Source: Deltaproteobacteria bacterium (GTDB lineage Bacteria; Desulfobacterota; Syntrophobacteria; BM002). Taken from it: a stretch of 64,000 bases of DNA. The position numbers and the translations under genes are program-made. The stretch's first letter is position 1; every line of letters begins with the position of its first letter. Under the pieces are notes generated by a model. The model did no database searches, was not told where the DNA came from, and saw only the letters and a program-made list of their open reading frames with translations. Positions 23,729-28,207 of the stretch are shown piece by piece. The DNA is taken from the NCBI GenBank assembly GCA_022340745.1, contig JAJDNL010000239.1, forward strand, positions 155 to 64,154, given 5' to 3'.

Positions 23729-24003
23729 TTGCCTTTGTGAGACCCTCTAACCGGAGACCCGCCCCAAAGGGATTGAGACTGAGCGCAGCGAGCGCGAAGA
23801 AGAAGGGTGTGCCACAGAAGCGACGATCACAGAACGCGGATTAAAATTTTCCTGAAAAGCTCGTGAGAACCAGAGATCTAATGGCGCAATGTGAACTCTT
23901 ACATTCAATATCATCAATTGTAGTCAAAAATCCGAAACCGGGAACCCGCCCGGAGGGTGGGAGTCCGAAGGACAAATTCGCAATCCGCAATCCGAAATCA
24001 GGC

Positions 24004-25596
24004 TTGCTTATTATTCTGCTGGTCAGTATCGCCTTGAACCATTGCGGACTTTCTGGAATCAACAGTTGGGACAGCCAGGTGCGCGGTTCGGACCAGATGC
24101 CGGACAGTATCCGACACCTGGTGCAGAAGCTCGCCACAAAAAGTAAGAAAGTCGAAAACCACACCGGTCTGGCCATTACCTATCCTTATGATGGAGCTGT
24201 TTTTCCTCCTGAGATTGCAGCACCTGTTATCGTATGGGAAGACGCCAATGCGGCTTCGAACCACTGGCTTATCGTGGTCGAATTCAGCAGCCAACGCAGT
24301 CCGATTTACGCTATTGCTGACGAGCAGGGCTGGGCACCGGACCAATCGATCTGGGAGGCCGTCAAAGCCAACTCAGTCCGCGCTCCTGCGAAAATAACCG
24401 TTTACGGTTTTGACCTCCAACATTCCGACACCATCGTCGCCAAGAACAGCATCCGCATTTCCACTTCAAAAGATCGTGTTGATGCCTCAATATTTTACCG
24501 ACAGGTCCAGCTCCCATTTAAAGTAGGGAAGAAGAATTTTAAAAAGCTAAAGTGGCGCCTTGGTGATATCTCTTCATATGAAAAACCGCCAGTTGTCATG
24601 GAAAATCTTCCTGTTTGTGCAAGCTGTCATCTTTTTTCAAAAGACGGCACTTTAATCAGCATGGAGATGAACTACAAGGAGGACAGTGGCGCTCATTTTA
24701 TCACGTCGGTCAGGGAGAATATTGAGTTGTCTGCAGAGGATTTCATGAGCTGGAATGATTTCCCCAGGCCGGAACTTCTGCCAAAAACCAGGGGCCTGTT
24801 TGCCAAGATATCGCCCAGCGGAAAATACATGGTGAGTACGGTACATGAGATATCCTATGCCGCCCTGACCAATAATTTTGCTTTCTGCCAGCTCTTCTTC
24901 CCAACCTACGGCGTGCTGGCCTGGTATTCGGTTGACAACAGGGAGTTTCATCTCCTTGCCGGAGCTGATGATTATGACTTTGTCCAGACTGACCCCAGCT
25001 GGAGCTGGGATGAAAAGTATATTGTCTTTGCCAGGTCAACCACCAAAAACGACTACCATGAAGACATCACAAACATCCACACCCATATCGAGGATGCCGA
25101 CATTCAGGAACTGAATGAAAAATTTCCCATCCAGTTTAATCTTTACAGGATGCCGTTCAATCAAGGAAAAGGCGGGATACCAGAGCCCTTAAAAGGTGCA
25201 AGTCACAACGGCATGAGCAACTATTTTCCAAGATATTCGCCGGACGGCAAGTGGATTGTCTTTACCCGCAGCAGGACCGGCATCATGCTCCAACCGGATA
25301 GCGAACTCTTTATTATACCGGCAGCCGGAGGCGAGGCTCGAAGGATGCGTTGCAACCGTGAGCTTTTCAATTCCTGGCACAGCTTTTCGCCCAATGGGAA
25401 ATGGATGCTTTTCAGTTCCAAGGCCAATACTCCTTTTACCGAAATCTTTCTGACCCACATTGATGCCAACGGGGTTGACAGTCCCCCGGTATGTTTATCC
25501 CGTTTCAGCGATGACCACTATGCCGCCAATGTGCCGGAGTTTGTCAATATTGGGCCCGGGGCGATCAAGAAGATAAAGATTTCGGCTCAGCGCTGA
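24004..25596 (+). CDS. exported CXXCH-motif protein with C-terminal TolB-like (PD40) beta-propeller
   Basis: Single C-A-S-C-H haem-c binding motif mid-protein (PVCASCHLF). C-terminal repeats YFPRYSPDGKWIVF / SFSPNGKWMLFSS are PD40/TolB-like. Hydrophobic N-terminus. Start uncertain: the ORF opens at 23863 but its first 140 nt are occupied by a dispersed hairpin repeat, so 24004 (TTG) is my best guess. Confidence 0.5.
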   Translation: MLIILLVSIALNHCGLSGINSWDSQVRGSDQMPDSIRHLVQKLATKSKKVENHTGLAITYPYDGAVFPPEIAAPVIVWEDANAASNHWLIVVEFSSQRSPIYAIADEQGWAPDQSIWEAVKANSVRAPAKITVYGFDLQHSDTIVAKNSIRISTSKDRVDASIFYRQVQLPFKVGKKNFKKLKWRLGDISSYEKPPVVMENLPVCASCHLFSKDGTLISMEMNYKEDSGAHFITSVRENIELSAEDFMSWNDFPRPELLPKTRGLFAKISPSGKYMVSTVHEISYAALTNNFAFCQLFFPTYGVLAWYSVDNREFHLLAGADDYDFVQTDPSWSWDEKYIVFARSTTKNDYHEDITNIHTHIEDADIQELNEKFPIQFNLYRMPFNQGKGGIPEPLKGASHNGMSNYFPRYSPDGKWIVFTRSRTGIMLQPDSELFIIPAAGGEARRMRCNRELFNSWHSFSPNGKWMLFSSKANTPFTEIFLTHIDANGVDSPPVCLSRFSDDHYAANVPEFVNIGPGAIKKIKISAQR

Positions 25597-25610
25597 GCGC
25601 AAAGCGTGAA

Positions 25611-25697
25611 GTAAACAGTAAACGGTGAACGGTAAACCGATCATGCGCTGGCTCCGCGACTGTTTACCGTTTACCATTTACCGTTCTTTCTTTTTTT
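25611..25697 (+). terminator. rho-independent terminator-like hairpin built from GTAAAC(A/G/C) heptamers
   Basis: GTAAACAGTAAACGGTGAACGGTAAACC ... GTTTACCGTTTACCATTTACCGTT inverted arms followed by a TTCTTTCTTTTTTT tract; 15 nt after the stop of the CXXCH/PD40 gene. Confidence 0.55.
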
Positions 25698-25786
25698 CGC
25701 TATGCGCCATGCGCTATGCTCTATGCGATCTGACCTGGCCCTGAGGACCAGGTCTGCTACTTTGAATCAAAGACGGGAGTTAATCT

Positions 25787-28207
25787 ATGAAAAGAGCTAG
25801 TGTCTATTTTATCCTGACACTGATCATTGTAGCCGGATGCAGTGCCTACAGGACTGCACAGTTTAAAAGGAGATATGGGCCGGTTCGTACTGTGGATCGG
25901 ACTGTCAGTTCTCATAAATCAGGTGAGATCTCTTTTTATGATGAGGTGCAGCCCATCCTGGAGCGTCGCTGTGATGTGTGCCACGGCTGTTATGATGCGC
26001 CCTGCCAGCTGAAGCTCACCTGTTATGAAGGGCTCGAGCGGGGCGGTACCACAAAGCTGGTTTACGATAGTGCCAGATTGAGACCGGATAAGCCGACCCG
26101 GCTATTTGTTGATGCAAATTCAGTGGAAGAATGGCGCCAGATGGGTTTCCACCCTGTTCTCAACGAGAGGGATCAGACCCCGCCGGCAAATCTCGAAAAC
26201 TCGGTGGTTAATCTGATGCTGCAGCTGAAAAAAGAGAATCCCCTGCCGGAGACGGAACTTCTGCCGGCCAGTTTTGATATCAGTCTTGACAAAAAACAGA
26301 ACTGTACAACTGCGGAAGATTTCAGTGAATACAAGAAGAAATATCCTCTCTGGGGAATGCCGTATGCGCTGCCCGGACTGACCGACAAGGAGCATAAGAC
26401 AATCGTAGAATGGTTGAGACAGGGGGGATTGATTACTCCGCGACCACCCATGTCGGCCAATGCCAAAAAAATTATAAACCAGTGGGAGGAATTCTTTAAC
26501 GGAACGTCGCTGAAGCAGCAGCTTGTATCACGCTATATTTATGAACATCTGTTTATCGCCCATATCCATTTTGACGACCTGCCGGACCGGGAGTTTTACC
26601 GGCTGGTTCGATCCAAAACACCTCCAGGAGAACCGGTGGTTGAGATCAATACAGCCAGACCCTATGACGATCCCGGGGTTGAGAAATTCTACTATCGGTT
26701 TCGTCCAATAGAAACAACCATTGTGGCAAAAAATCACACTGTCTATCGGATGAATAGACAAAAAATGGAACTCTACCGGGAGCTCTTCCTGCAGGACGAT
26801 TATGAGGTAAACAAGCTGCCGTCCTATGATCTCAAAACAGCCTCCAATCCGTTTAAGGCTTTTGCGGATCTGCCCGCTATTTCCCGTTACAAGTTCTTGC
26901 TGGATGATGCCCAGTTCTTCGTCATGGGCTTTATCAAGGGGCCTGTTTGCCGTGGCCAGATTGCCCTCAACGTTATTAACGACCACTTCTTTGTTGCCTT
27001 TTTTGATCCGGAAAAAGACATCATCAGCAATGATACCGCCTTTCTTGCCAGTGTGAGTGATTATCTGGACTTACCTACCAGCGGGGAAAATAAACTAAAT
27101 ATCACGATCCTTTGGACTGACTATCAGGATAAACAAAAAAAATATCTGGCTGCCAAGGGAGAGTATCTTGCCAAACTGGATCCGGCCAAAACGGGGAATG
27201 ATATAACTCATATTTGGAACGGTGACGGCCACAATAGAAATGCGTTGTTAACGATTTTCAGACATTTTGACAGTGCCAGCGTGGTAAAGGGTTTTGTGGG
27301 AGACACACCCAAAACCGGCTGGGTGATTGACTATCCGCTTTTTGAAAGGATCCACTATCTGCTGGTTGCCGGTTTCAACGTGTTTGGCAATGTGGGACAT
27401 CAACTAGAAACTCGGCTTTATATGGACTTTCTCCGCATGGAGGGAGAGAATAATTTCTTGAGCTTCCTGCCAAAGGATAAGCGCGTCGAGGAACGGGCAG
27501 ATTGGTATAAGGGCGCCAGGGCCGAACATAAGATTCACCTGGAGGACCCTCTTCGGGGGCTTCAATGGGACACCGGAATTGTCTACACAACAAACGATCC
27601 CAAAAAGGAATTTTTTGAGCAGATCATTGAGCATGCAGGTCCGGCTGCCGGTCCGAAGGACTACTTGAACCGCTGCCCTGAGAAAAACTGTGTTGATAAG
27701 AATACAGGGCCACTTGAACAAAGAGCGGACTTGGCCCTGCAAAAGGTGACCGGGAAGCGCGGCCCTGAGATACAGGTGGTCCAGGATGTGGCCTTTATTC
27801 ATGTGGTTACCGGTAACAAGGATAATGACCTCGCCTATACCGTTATCCGCAACAAGGCTTTGAGCAACAATTCATTCATGTTTGGTGAGGAGAGAAGGCG
27901 CATTGTTGAAGACGACACCCTTACCATAGTCAAGGGTTATGTGGGCAACTATCCAAACTCATTCGTCCGAGTAAACCTAGACGAAATAGAGGAGTTTGTT
28001 GAAAGTTTTCTCAAAATCAGGGATCAACTCAGCTATTACAATGTCGCCAGAAAGTATGCCATTAGAAGAACCAGTCCCAATTTCTGGGAGGAGGCAGACT
28101 GGCACTACCAGAAATATCTCAAGGACGAACCGGTGGAAGCAGGGCTATTTGATATGTATCGTTTCAATCGGATTGCAGAGAAATCTGATGCGGAGTTTAC
28201 ATGGTAA
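25787..28207 (+). CDS. cti: fatty acid cis/trans isomerase (CTI family), periplasmic haem-c lipoprotein
   Basis: 806 aa. Lipoprotein signal MKRASVYFILTLIIVAGC. N-terminal CDVCHGCYDAPCQLKL (CXXCH) and overall size match Pseudomonas/Vibrio Cti as I recall it. No search was run. Confidence 0.6.
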   Translation: MKRASVYFILTLIIVAGCSAYRTAQFKRRYGPVRTVDRTVSSHKSGEISFYDEVQPILERRCDVCHGCYDAPCQLKLTCYEGLERGGTTKLVYDSARLRPDKPTRLFVDANSVEEWRQMGFHPVLNERDQTPPANLENSVVNLMLQLKKENPLPETELLPASFDISLDKKQNCTTAEDFSEYKKKYPLWGMPYALPGLTDKEHKTIVEWLRQGGLITPRPPMSANAKKIINQWEEFFNGTSLKQQLVSRYIYEHLFIAHIHFDDLPDREFYRLVRSKTPPGEPVVEINTARPYDDPGVEKFYYRFRPIETTIVAKNHTVYRMNRQKMELYRELFLQDDYEVNKLPSYDLKTASNPFKAFADLPAISRYKFLLDDAQFFVMGFIKGPVCRGQIALNVINDHFFVAFFDPEKDIISNDTAFLASVSDYLDLPTSGENKLNITILWTDYQDKQKKYLAAKGEYLAKLDPAKTGNDITHIWNGDGHNRNALLTIFRHFDSASVVKGFVGDTPKTGWVIDYPLFERIHYLLVAGFNVFGNVGHQLETRLYMDFLRMEGENNFLSFLPKDKRVEERADWYKGARAEHKIHLEDPLRGLQWDTGIVYTTNDPKKEFFEQIIEHAGPAAGPKDYLNRCPEKNCVDKNTGPLEQRADLALQKVTGKRGPEIQVVQDVAFIHVVTGNKDNDLAYTVIRNKALSNNSFMFGEERRRIVEDDTLTIVKGYVGNYPNSFVRVNLDEIEEFVESFLKIRDQLSYYNVARKYAIRRTSPNFWEEADWHYQKYLKDEPVEAGLFDMYRFNRIAEKSDAEFTW

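What the first reader, a model, noticed from the sequence alone, without database searches (positions are those of the whole stretch)
24004..28207. Putative haem-c fatty-acid cis/trans isomerase (Cti) in an anaerobe-like genome, paired with a second exported CXXCH protein carrying a TolB-like beta-propeller
The 806-aa lipoprotein has the N-terminal CDVCHGCYDAPCQLKL block and the size characteristic of Cti, which is known mainly from Pseudomonas and Vibrio, where it is a monocistronic periplasmic cytochrome-c-type enzyme. Immediately upstream, separated by a strong terminator (25611-25697), is a 530-aa exported protein with its own single CXXCH (CASCH) followed by PD40 beta-propeller repeats. 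I know of no described Cti partner of this kind. An adjacent mono-haem propeller protein could be a dedicated redox partner that keeps the Cti haem in the active state, or a membrane-lipid-sensing component. Cti in a Desulfobacterota-like background would itself be noteworthy.
Basis: partly seen in the sequence, partly recalled or inferred. Interest (0 to 1): 0.7.

Follow-up and report, generated by a model that had tools for sequence, protein, structure and literature searches.

The report
Cti isomerase with conserved haem-propeller partner
A sulfate-reducer-type genome carries a genuine membrane-lipid cis/trans isomerase (Cti), and in this whole bacterial lineage the gene is always preceded by a gene for an uncharacterised exported beta-propeller protein with a conserved haem-attachment motif. 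This is unexpected because the well-studied Pseudomonas enzyme works alone.

Summary
The 806-aa protein is a true Cti: Pfam CTI 908 bits, and 38% identity over its full length to the biochemically characterised P. aeruginosa enzyme. The haem motif and the distal Met ligand align with that enzyme.

P2 belongs to a widespread, uncharacterised family found in Planctomycetota, Acidobacteriota, Gammaproteobacteria and others. Most members carry a C-terminal TPR tail and have no Cti neighbour. One TPR-less subclade sits directly upstream of cti in 13 lineages checked (Desulfosarcina, Desulfoluna, Maridesulfovibrio and MAGs). Gaps are mostly 11-90 nt and the flanking genes differ. Cti relatives at 53% identity or less are solitary.

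The "terminator" is a real hairpin, but it lies in about 156 nt that the nearest relatives lack; their gap is 34 nt.

Cti in Desulfobacterota is already annotated. The conserved pair appears undescribed. The redox-partner idea is weakened by evidence that Pa-Cti is ferrous and needs no partner. P2's haem binding and role remain inferred.

The parts
24004..25596 (+). P2 gene: probable lipoprotein with an N-terminal beta domain and a TolB-like six-bladed propeller. It is 530 aa from TTG 24004; alternative in-frame starts are ATG 23881 and GTG 23863.
24043..24045 (+). Cys14 of P2, the probable lipid-attachment cysteine after the hydrophobic signal (LLIILLVSIALNH-C).
   Evidence: This Cys is conserved in at least 90% of 75 subfamily members. 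Other members have canonical lipoboxes such as AGC, TGC and AAC. The His at -1 here is non-canonical, so lipidation is inferred.
24166..24603 (+). P2 N-terminal beta-rich domain (about residues 55-200), present throughout the family.
   Evidence: DSSP on the AF2 model shows mostly strands from 56 to 200. The invariant residues P61, P68 and W78 lie here. The homology of distant relatives starts at about residue 50-56.
24616..24630 (+). CASCH, the single CXXCH motif of P2 (C205, C208, H209). It sits at the start of the first propeller blade.
   Evidence: Translation is. The motif is invariant in 20/20, 75/75 and 84/84 aligned homologues. Exactly one CXXCH occurs in every full-length family ORF across about 10 phyla. 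The model places it at the start of a beta hairpin, 206-211 / 217-222.
25216..25281 (+). Best-scoring PD40 repeat of P2 (residues 405-426).
25378..25380 (+). His459 of P2, in the motif NSWHSFSPNG. It occupies the same blade position as His209 and is a candidate second axial ligand or metal ligand.
   Evidence: Translation is. It is one of only 13 invariant columns in 84 sequences down to 31% identity. The ligand role is inferred.
25600..25755 (+). About 156 nt of extra intergenic DNA that the nearest relatives lack. It contains the heptamer-repeat hairpin and a second small hairpin (25732-25754). Boundaries are approximate.
   Evidence: Alignment with L090 and L092, which have a 34-nt spacer.
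25614..25697 (+). Terminator-like hairpin: arms 25614-25637 and 25662-25685, built from GTAAACN heptamers, followed by a T-rich run.
   Evidence: The heptamer motif has 6 matches in the window against 0.29 expected, and 5 of the 6 are here. Terminator function was not tested.
25775..25779 (+). GGGAG ribosome-binding site of cti, 8 nt before the ATG. It is conserved in the nearest relatives.
25787..28207 (+). cti: haem-c fatty-acid/phospholipid cis/trans isomerase, 806 aa, predicted lipoprotein.
   Evidence: Pfam CTI scores 908.6 bits. It is 38% identical over 767 aligned positions to P. aeruginosa Cti. There are 120 listed homologues of 49-94% identity, some named fatty acid cis/trans isomerase by NCBI.
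25838..25840 (+). Cys18 of Cti, the lipobox cysteine (IVAG-C).
   Evidence: A lipobox-like signal is present in 105 of 107 full-length homologues.
25967..26017 (+). RCDVCHGCYDAPCQLKL: the haem-c attachment motif (C62, C65, H66) plus the conserved Cys68 and Cys73.
   Evidence: Translation is. All are invariant in 107/107 homologues. The block aligns with CVACHACYDSPCQLNL of Pa-Cti.
26357..26359 (+). Met191 (LWGMPYA), equivalent to the distal haem ligand Met163 of Pa-Cti.
   Evidence: Invariant in 107/107. It aligns without gaps to GSGMPFA of Pa-Cti, the residue mutated in M163A/H. Its ligand role in Pa-Cti is from PMC11727003.
26939..26959 (+). GPVCRGQ loop (residues 385-391) with the invariant Cys388, a probable active-site element.
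   Evidence: Invariant in 55/55 homologues and identical in Pa-Cti. It is one of three low-confidence loops in the AF2 model, together with the haem motif and the Met191 loop. The active-site role is inferred.

Best explanation
The locus is a conserved two-gene envelope module, P2 followed by cti, that is characteristic of a Desulfobacterota clade.

**Cti.** It is a genuine haem-c lipid cis/trans isomerase with a CXXCH motif, proximal His66 and distal Met191. It is exported and probably lipid-anchored. By homology to the Pseudomonas enzyme it converts cis double bonds of membrane phospholipid acyl chains to trans, which stiffens the membrane quickly under stress.

**P2.** It is a second exported, probably lipid-anchored protein. 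It consists of an N-terminal beta domain and a TolB-like six-bladed propeller. An invariant CXXCH is built into the first blade and most likely carries one covalently bound haem. P2 was recruited from a widespread family of CXXCH-propeller-TPR proteins. In this subclade the TPR tail is absent and the gene is fused into an operon with cti.

**Most likely mechanism.** P2 is a dedicated accessory subunit that binds Cti at the membrane and conditions or gates it. This would work either by electron exchange between the two haems (or with Cti's conserved cysteines) or by haem-ligand-dependent docking. P2 is probably not required for the isomerisation chemistry itself.

**Shown:** family membership of Cti, the fold and motif conservation of P2, and the strict adjacency of the pair in variable genomic contexts.
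**Inferred:** haem attachment to P2, lipidation, physical interaction, and the nature of the control.

In this particular genome an inserted hairpin may partly uncouple transcription of the two genes.
For: **Cti identity**
- Pfam CTI scores 908.6 bits.
- It is 38% identical over its full length to the characterised Pa-Cti, with CXXCH, Met163 (= M191) and the GPVCRGQ loop aligned.
- These residues are invariant in 107 homologues.

**P2 fold**
- AF2 model pLDDT 95.4.

**P2 motif**
- CXXCH is invariant in 84 sequences down to 31% identity. Two Cys and two His are among only 13 invariant columns.
- There is one CXXCH per protein in all full-length family ORFs across phyla.
- An N-terminal signal with a conserved Cys is present.

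**Linkage**
- P2 is immediately upstream of cti, on the same strand, in the window, L001-L003 and L053, and in Maridesulfovibrio frigidus L081 (27-nt gap).
- The same holds in Desulfoluna butyratoxydans L082, L086, L087, L089, L090-L092, L093 and L095.
- Neighbouring genes are unrelated in each case.
- P2 and Cti pairwise distances correlate, r = 0.89, with 0 of 2000 Mantel permutations as high.
- The boundary is sharp. Cti at 56% identity or more always has P2. Cti at 50-53% identity, in gammaproteobacterial-type contexts, never does.
- The Cti-linked P2 proteins form one clade and all lack the TPR tail that most other family members carry.
- The nearest relatives have a 34-nt junction with a conserved cti RBS.
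Against: - Pa-Cti isomerises phospholipids in liposomes without any partner. It is isolated ferrous at a high potential, and its activity may not depend on oxidation state (PMC11727003). Cti is described as monocistronic and cofactor-independent (PMC5847196). A partner is therefore not needed for catalysis in the studied enzymes.
- No haem protein appears among P2's structural neighbours.
- The model places the CXXCH at the start of a beta strand rather than in the usual helical turn, so haem attachment is unproven. A Cys2His2 metal site is an alternative.
- Most of the P2 family has no Cti nearby and no other shared neighbour, so the generic function of the family is unknown.
- One member of the linked clade (L004) has no adjacent cti.
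- No interaction, expression or lipid data exist. No paper linking Cti to these taxa was found.
- In the window itself a terminator-like hairpin separates the genes.
Confidence: 0.5

Rival explanations
1. P2 and Cti are co-regulated but work independently. Both belong to an envelope-stress module and are transcribed together. P2 carries out the still unknown generic function of its family, for example a periplasmic haem-based redox, peroxide-handling or sensing role, and does not touch Cti.
For: - The P2 family is large (390 clusters at 50% identity with E <= 1e-30) and occurs in many phyla without Cti.
- Its most conserved features are shared by Cti-linked and unlinked members.
- Pa-Cti needs no partner.
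- L004 has the P2 subclade without an adjacent cti.
Against: - The pair keeps the same order, strand and, in most loci, a very short spacing while everything around it changes. This holds across at least three classes of Desulfobacterota.
- The boundary with solitary Cti is sharp.
- Loss of the TPR interaction tail coincides with acquisition of the Cti neighbour.
Confidence: 0.27
2. P2 is a haem-free scaffold or chaperone. The CXXCH together with His459 forms a structural metal site or a disulfide at the ring closure of the propeller. P2 acts as a TolB-like docking or maturation factor that positions, sorts or stabilises the Cti lipoprotein.
For: - Exactly two Cys and two His are invariant in the family.
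- The motif lies at the start of a strand of blade 1, and His459 is at the equivalent position of the last blade.
- Structural neighbours are protein-binding propellers such as TolB and LDLR/LRP YWTD domains, not cytochromes.
Against: - A Cys directly followed by His in C-X-X-C-H is the canonical haem-c attachment signature.
- Established knowledge of the Ccm system (not tested here) is that it recognises little more than this motif in an exported protein.
- Adjacent residues rarely bind the same structural metal ion.
- The motif is more conserved than anything else in the protein.
Confidence: 0.15
3. The adjacency has no functional meaning. It is synteny inherited from a common ancestor or a chance juxtaposition.
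For: The linked loci all come from one phylum. The closest relatives share long synteny with the window (leuB-asd-cbiQ-rsmD-coaD-P2-cti-NUDIX).
Against: - Outside the immediate relatives, every flank is different while the pair is intact.
- The proteins have diverged to 56-60% identity, a distance at which unselected gene order is normally lost.
- The gaps of 11-90 nt in most loci indicate co-transcription.
Confidence: 0.04

Closest known systems
Pseudomonas Cti (P. aeruginosa PA1846 / P. putida Cti), the periplasmic haem-c fatty-acid and phospholipid cis/trans isomerase
   Same: - The window protein is colinear with it over the full length at 38% identity and carries the Pfam CTI domain.
- Both have a single N-terminal CXXCH in the block CxxCHxCYDxPCQL.
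- The distal Met in G-M-P-(F/Y)-A and the GPVCRGQ loop are shared.
- Both have an export signal.
   Different: - The window protein has a lipoprotein-type signal (IVAG-C). Pa-Cti has a signal-peptidase-I type signal (SVSA/AE).
- The host is an anaerobe-type Desulfobacterota.
- The gene is preceded by a conserved partner gene, whereas Pseudomonas cti is described as monocistronic and partner-independent.
- Activity of the window enzyme is untested.
TolB, the periplasmic component of the Tol-Pal system
   Different: - Sequence identity is only 15-17%.
- The NCBIfam TolB model scores 30 bits against a cut-off of 343.
- P2 has a CXXCH, which TolB lacks, a different beta-rich N-terminal domain and a lipoprotein-like signal.
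- P2 is not in a tol-pal gene cluster.
The uncharacterised CXXCH-propeller-TPR family, annotated 'PD40 domain-containing', 'TolB family' or 'WD40-like' protein in Planctomycetota, Acidobacteriota, Verrucomicrobiota, Myxococcota, Gammaproteobacteria and Bacteroidota
   Same: P2 is a member. It shares the N-terminal domain, the invariant CXXCH, the propeller and His459, at 31-49% identity over residues of about 55-525.
   Different: - Most members are 750-950 aa with a C-terminal TPR array.
- They have no Cti neighbour and no other shared neighbour.
- The window's subclade is about 500-560 aa, lacks the TPR array and is paired with Cti.
Haem-c enzymes that contain a propeller: cytochrome cd1 nitrite reductase, quinohaemoprotein alcohol dehydrogenases, hydrazine synthase alpha
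   Same: A c-type haem motif and a beta-propeller occur in one periplasmic polypeptide.
   Different: From general knowledge, those proteins carry the haem in a separate helical cytochrome domain and mostly have 8-bladed propellers. Here the motif is embedded in the first blade of a 6-bladed propeller. None of these proteins appeared among the top structural matches.
Tricorn protease N-terminal propellers (Pfam PF26549 Tricorn_N, PF26550 Tricorn_2nd)
   Same: Precomputed Pfam hits on P2 homologues.
   Different: P2 has no protease, PDZ or S41 domain. The hit reflects a generic PD40-type propeller. The local Pfam copy did not report it for the window protein.

Membership tests
Cti (fatty acid cis/trans isomerase, Pfam PF06934) | Full-length match to the CTI profile above the curated cut-off | tested here: met
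   908.6 bits against a cut-off of 25, covering profile positions 2-691 of 692.
Cti (fatty acid cis/trans isomerase, Pfam PF06934) | Colinear homology to an experimentally characterised Cti | tested here: met
   38% identity and 57% positives over 767 aligned positions with P. aeruginosa Cti. That sequence was taken from the supplement of PMC11727003.
Cti (fatty acid cis/trans isomerase, Pfam PF06934) | Single N-terminal CXXCH haem-c attachment motif | tested here: met
   CDVCH at residues 62-66. There is one motif per protein in 107/107 homologues, and it aligns with CVACH of Pa-Cti.
Cti (fatty acid cis/trans isomerase, Pfam PF06934) | Conserved distal methionine ligand (Met163 of recombinant Pa-Cti) | tested here: met
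   M191 is invariant in 107/107. It aligns without gaps to the Met in GSGMPFA targeted by the M163A/H primers.
Cti (fatty acid cis/trans isomerase, Pfam PF06934) | Export to the periplasm | tested here: met
   N-terminal hydrophobic signal with the lipobox IVAG-C. A lipobox-like signal is present in 105/107 homologues. This is a sequence prediction only.
Cti (fatty acid cis/trans isomerase, Pfam PF06934) | Covalently bound haem and cis-to-trans isomerase activity on unsaturated acyl chains | not testable with these tools
   This needs protein expression with a cytochrome c maturation system and a fatty-acid methyl-ester assay.
Cti (fatty acid cis/trans isomerase, Pfam PF06934) | Monocistronic, partner-independent gene (as described for Pseudomonas) | tested here: not met
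   A conserved upstream partner gene is present in all 13 lineages checked within this clade. This is a descriptive trait of the studied enzymes, not a criterion that excludes family membership.
TolB (Tol-Pal system, TIGR02800) | Score above the equivalog cut-off | tested here: not met
   30 bits against a cut-off of 343.15.
TolB (Tol-Pal system, TIGR02800) | Six-bladed PD40 propeller fold | tested here: met
TolB (Tol-Pal system, TIGR02800) | Location in a tol-pal gene cluster | tested here: not met
   The neighbours are coaD and rsmD upstream, and cti and a NUDIX gene downstream.
c-type cytochrome (covalent haem protein), applied to P2 | CXXCH motif conserved in an exported protein | tested here: met
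   Invariant in 84/84 sequences down to 31% identity and in all full-length family ORFs. Signal sequences are present.
c-type cytochrome (covalent haem protein), applied to P2 | Recognisable cytochrome c fold or structural similarity to a haem protein | tested here: not met
c-type cytochrome (covalent haem protein), applied to P2 | Covalently bound haem demonstrated | not testable with these tools
   This needs haem staining, spectroscopy or mass spectrometry of the expressed protein.
CXXCH-propeller(-TPR) family (uncharacterised), applied to P2 | N-terminal beta domain, then CXXCH, then a PD40 propeller with the invariant NSWH motif, homologous over about 470 residues | tested here: met
CXXCH-propeller(-TPR) family (uncharacterised), applied to P2 | C-terminal TPR array | tested here: not met
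   P2 ends right after the propeller at residue 530. Long forms of 740-950 aa carry obvious TPR repeats.

The most novel reading that the evidence does not exclude
The Desulfobacterota Cti is a two-subunit enzyme. P2 is a new kind of c-type haem protein, with the haem built into a propeller blade. Under anoxic, sulfidic conditions Cti cannot start or control isomerisation without it. P2 might supply or remove the single electron (or the radical on Cti's conserved cysteines) that begins catalysis, or it might switch Cti on when its haem binds O2, sulfide or NO. This would imply that Cti chemistry has a redox-initiation step that has been hidden in aerobic Pseudomonas. It would also give a first function to the large CXXCH-propeller-TPR family.
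Probability: 0.12. Interest if true: 0.8.

Novelty: new variant of a known kind. Interest (0 to 1): 0.52.

Why it matters
Cti is the textbook example of an instant, cofactor-free, partner-free way to stiffen membranes. Its catalytic mechanism is still unresolved, and it has been studied almost only in aerobic Pseudomonas and Vibrio.

A whole clade of Cti in strictly anaerobic sulfate reducers is invariably encoded with a second probable haem protein. This offers a natural experiment on two open questions: whether the haem's redox state, or a radical initiator, matters for catalysis, and how the enzyme is controlled.

It would also provide the first functional handle on a widespread, uncharacterised family of exported CXXCH-propeller proteins, with about 390 clusters at 50% identity.

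Trans fatty acids in anoxic sediments are used as stress biomarkers, so it matters which anaerobes can make them enzymatically.

If P2 proves unrelated to Cti function, the finding reduces to a correct annotation of a known enzyme next to a hypothetical protein.

Tried and rejected
- **Shared neighbours elsewhere in the P2 family.** I clustered all ORFs of 80 genome loci. No neighbour family occurs in more than 13 loci, and none is shared by the short TPR-less forms. The wider family gives no functional clue.
- **Prevalence from the genome scan.** Only 4 of 80 loci had Cti. Several large Desulfobacterota genomes seen are missing from them, so 4/80 is not a prevalence estimate. I used targeted contig look-ups instead.
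- **L005 (Verrucomicrobiia MAG).** It falls in the linked clade but its contig ends about 200 nt after P2, so it says nothing about adjacency.
- **NCBIfam.** There is no model for Cti, and only sub-threshold propeller hits for P2.
- **Rfam and tRNA scans of the whole window.** Both found nothing. The intergenic hairpin is not a known RNA family.
- **Promoter and terminator consensus scan.** It found no promoter-like site in either intergenic region and did not call the hairpin.
- **PDB sequence search with Cti.** No relative was found. A Foldseek search with the Cti model found nothing significant, only weak SCP2-like similarity at the C-terminus.
- **AFDB fold search.** It was not available.
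- **Literature.** Searches for Cti in sulfate reducers, and for CXXCH/PD40 propeller proteins, found nothing specific.
- **Mirror-tree correlation.** It is reported, but adjacent genes would show it anyway. It supports co-inheritance only, not interaction.

Full report

Yes. The window has two consecutive plus-strand ORFs: 23863/24004-25596 and 25787-28207.

The downstream protein (806 aa) starts MKRASVYFILTLIIVAGC, which is a lipobox. It carries RCDVCHGCYDAPCQLKL at 25967-26017.

The upstream protein (P2) carries a single CXXCH, CASCH, at 24616-24630. Pfam gives CTI PF06934 at 908.6 bits (E 4e-273, residues 102-794) for the first protein. It gives PD40 PF07676 at 49 bits (cut-off 20.9) for the second.

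Between the genes lies an inverted repeat with arms at 25614-25637 and 25662-25685. The arms are 24 nt and 88% complementary, are built of GTAAACN heptamers, and are followed by a T-rich run. The 190-nt spacer folds at -63.8 kcal/mol (z = -3.7).

Two details need correction:
- The P2 start is uncertain. Most close homologues begin MKKKSNLLIILLVSLALSHC, but in this lineage that start is gone. The ORF either begins at TTG 24004, which leaves no charged n-region, or at ATG 23881.
- The hairpin is not a general feature of the locus (section 3).

**2. What is the 806-aa protein?**

It is a genuine Cti. I took the P. aeruginosa Cti coding sequence from the supplement of Mauger et al. 2024 (PMC11727003) and aligned it. 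The result is 38% identity and 57% positives over 767 positions, colinear from the haem motif to the C-terminus.

CDVCH aligns with CVACH. Met191 (LWGMPYA) aligns without gaps to the Met in GSGMPFA. That paper identified this residue (Met163 in recombinant numbering) as the distal haem ligand.

In 107 full-length homologues, C62, C65, H66, C68, C73, C173 and M191 are all invariant, and each protein has exactly one CXXCH. A lipobox-like signal is present in 105 of 107. Pa-Cti instead has an ordinary cleavable signal.

No solved structure is related by sequence. An AF2 model has pLDDT 83 and pTM 0.87. Its low-confidence loops fall on the haem motif (64-70), the Met191 loop (190-194) and the invariant GPVCRGQ loop (386-396). 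This is what one expects for a pocket that lacks its haem in the model. Foldseek against the PDB finds nothing significant, only a weak SCP2-like resemblance.

**3. What is the upstream protein, and is the pairing real?**

*Conservation.* P2 has thousands of database relatives. In 20, 75 and 84-sequence alignments, going down to 31% identity, C205, C208 and H209 are invariant. In the widest alignment only 13 columns are invariant, and they include these three residues plus His459. The N-terminal Cys after the signal is conserved in at least 90% of sequences.

*Position of the motif.* The CXXCH sits at the start of the hairpin ASCHLF-SKDGT-LISMEM, which looks like a PD40 blade. His209 occupies the same blade position as the invariant His459 in NSWHSFSPNG.

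*The wider family.* A scan of one genome per species found relatives in Planctomycetota, Acidobacteriota, Verrucomicrobiota, Myxococcota, Gammaproteobacteria, Bacteroidota, Spirochaetota and others. Every full-length ORF has one CXXCH, as CGNCH or CANCH. Most are 740-950 aa because of a C-terminal TPR array. A library-wide HMMER search counts 390 clusters at 50% identity with E <= 1e-30. The Cti-linked subfamily collapses into essentially one such cluster.

*The pairing.* Cti lies immediately downstream, on the same strand, in these loci:
- the four closest genome loci, including Desulfosarcina variabilis;
- Maridesulfovibrio frigidus, with a 27-nt gap;
- Desulfoluna butyratoxydans;
- metagenomic or MAG contigs L086, L087, L089, L093 and L095;
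- the window's nearest relatives L090-L092.

The surrounding genes are unrelated in every case except the nearest relatives.

The limit is sharp. Cti at 56% identity or more to the window always has P2. Cti at 50-53% identity sits alone, either next to purA-hisZ-hflCK-hflX-hfq or in another context.

In a rough neighbour-joining tree the linked P2 proteins form one clade. That clade also holds L004, which has no adjacent cti, and L005, whose contig ends right after P2 and is uninformative. Distances of P2 and Cti correlate (r = 0.89), as expected for genes inherited together. Unlinked family members share no neighbour that could hint at a function.

*The hairpin.* The nearest relatives have 94% P2 identity and the same leuB-asd-cbiQ-rsmD-coaD-P2-cti-NUDIX order. 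They have only 34 nt between the genes, and the cti ribosome-binding site is conserved. The window has about 156 nt of extra DNA that contains the hairpin. A second small extra piece, 39 nt and in frame, lies at 23935-23973. The ancestral arrangement is therefore an operon. The 'strong terminator' is a recent local addition whose effect is untested.

**4. How does it most likely work?**

*Shown:*
- Cti has all sequence hallmarks of the characterised enzyme.
- P2 is a TolB-like propeller with an invariant CXXCH and an export signal.
- The two genes behave as one inherited unit.

*Inferred:*
- Cti isomerises cis acyl chains of membrane phospholipids at the periplasmic face.
- P2 carries a covalently attached haem. 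This rests on motif invariance plus export. I put it at about 65%.
- P2 acts on or with Cti.

Pa-Cti is isolated as low-spin Fe(II) with His/Met ligation and Em of +245 to +403 mV. [quoted passage not shown] The M163A mutant, which is ferric and about 450-650 mV lower in potential, keeps some activity. From this the authors suggest that catalysis may be independent of oxidation state. The 2018 review describes cti as monocistronic, constitutive and cofactor-free.

A partner is therefore unlikely to be required for the chemistry. A conditioning, gating or docking role specific to this lineage is more plausible. Loss of the TPR protein-interaction tail at the point where a fixed neighbour was acquired fits a dedicated partner.

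I put about 0.5 on P2 being a direct accessory of Cti. Within that, electron exchange and haem-ligand or docking control are about equally likely. The rivals are:
- independent but co-regulated function, about 0.27;
- a haem-free scaffold or chaperone with a Cys2His2 site, about 0.15;
- meaningless synteny, about 0.04.

**5. Comparison with what is known, and novelty**

Membership of the Cti family is met on every sequence criterion tested. P2 is not TolB: it scores 30 bits against a cut-off of 343 and is in the wrong gene context. It is not a recognisable cytochrome fold. It belongs to an uncharacterised CXXCH-propeller-TPR family but lacks the TPR part.

Cti in Desulfobacterota is not new at the annotation level. 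NCBI already uses the name for Desulfosarcina, Maridesulfovibrio and Desulfoluna proteins, and Desulfoluna spongiiphila is in Table 1 of the 2018 review. I found no physiological study, and no paper mentioning the partner gene.

The conserved P2-cti pair is therefore a new variant of a known system, supported by comparative genomics only.

**6. Verdict**

Interest is moderate at 0.52. The result is a clean, testable departure from the 'Cti works alone' picture, and it offers a first handle on a large unknown protein family. There is no experimental or structural evidence yet for haem binding or interaction.

Noticed in passing
window 25600-25755: About 156 nt of extra DNA lies between P2 and cti and is absent from relatives with 94% identical P2. 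It holds a long hairpin made of GTAAACN heptamer repeats, tandem CGCTATGC-like repeats (25698-25725) and a second small hairpin (25732-25754). It looks like a small inserted repeat element rather than an ordinary terminator.
   Followed up: partly
window 23863-24045, especially 23935-23973: The 5' end of P2 is remodelled in this lineage. The MKKK start of most close homologues is missing, and the reading frame is open 120-140 nt further upstream. The window also has a 39-nt in-frame GC-rich extra piece flanked by AATCCGAAA-like repeats, which L090 and L092 lack. The true start codon, and whether the signal peptide is intact, are unclear.
   Followed up: partly
L011 7539-9842 and 9863-12457; L024 406-2949 and 3003-5552; L029 176-2128 and 2130-4580: Several Planctomycetota loci carry two tandem copies of the long (TPR-bearing) CXXCH-propeller gene, which points to local duplication of this family.
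   Followed up: no
window 25787-28207 (Cti residues 68, 73, 173, 388): Besides the two haem cysteines, Cti has four more cysteines that are invariant in its homologues: C68 and C73 right after the haem motif, C173, and C388 in the GPVCRGQ loop, which is also conserved in Pa-Cti. The haem-motif, Met191 and GPVCRGQ loops are the low-confidence parts of the AF2 model, so they may line the haem pocket. Conserved thiols next to the haem could bear on the unresolved mechanism.
   Followed up: partly
window about 27700-28200 (Cti C-terminal region): The only PDB resemblance of the Cti model is weak similarity to SCP2-type lipid-carrier domains, including the SCP2-like C-terminal domain of alkylsulfatases (Foldseek probability up to 0.72, E > 0.001). 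A lipid-binding module would make sense but the hit is not significant. The window coordinates are my guess: the search output does not report which part of the model aligned.
   Followed up: no
L004 9944-11593: A Thermodesulfobacteriota MAG has a P2 protein (55% identical) that falls inside the Cti-linked clade but has no cti within 10 kb. Its downstream neighbour is a BcrAD/BadFG-type ATPase on the opposite strand. This could be a loss or relocation of cti.
   Followed up: partly
window 23750-23790: The GC-rich hairpin after coaD is a perfect CCCGCCCC-AAA-GGGGCGGG in the relatives L090 and L092. It is degraded in the window (CCCGCCCCAAAGGGATTGAG), so coaD transcription might read through into P2 here.
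   Followed up: no
window 1-64000: No tRNA gene and no Rfam family above its gathering score were found in the whole 64-kb window.
   Followed up: yes
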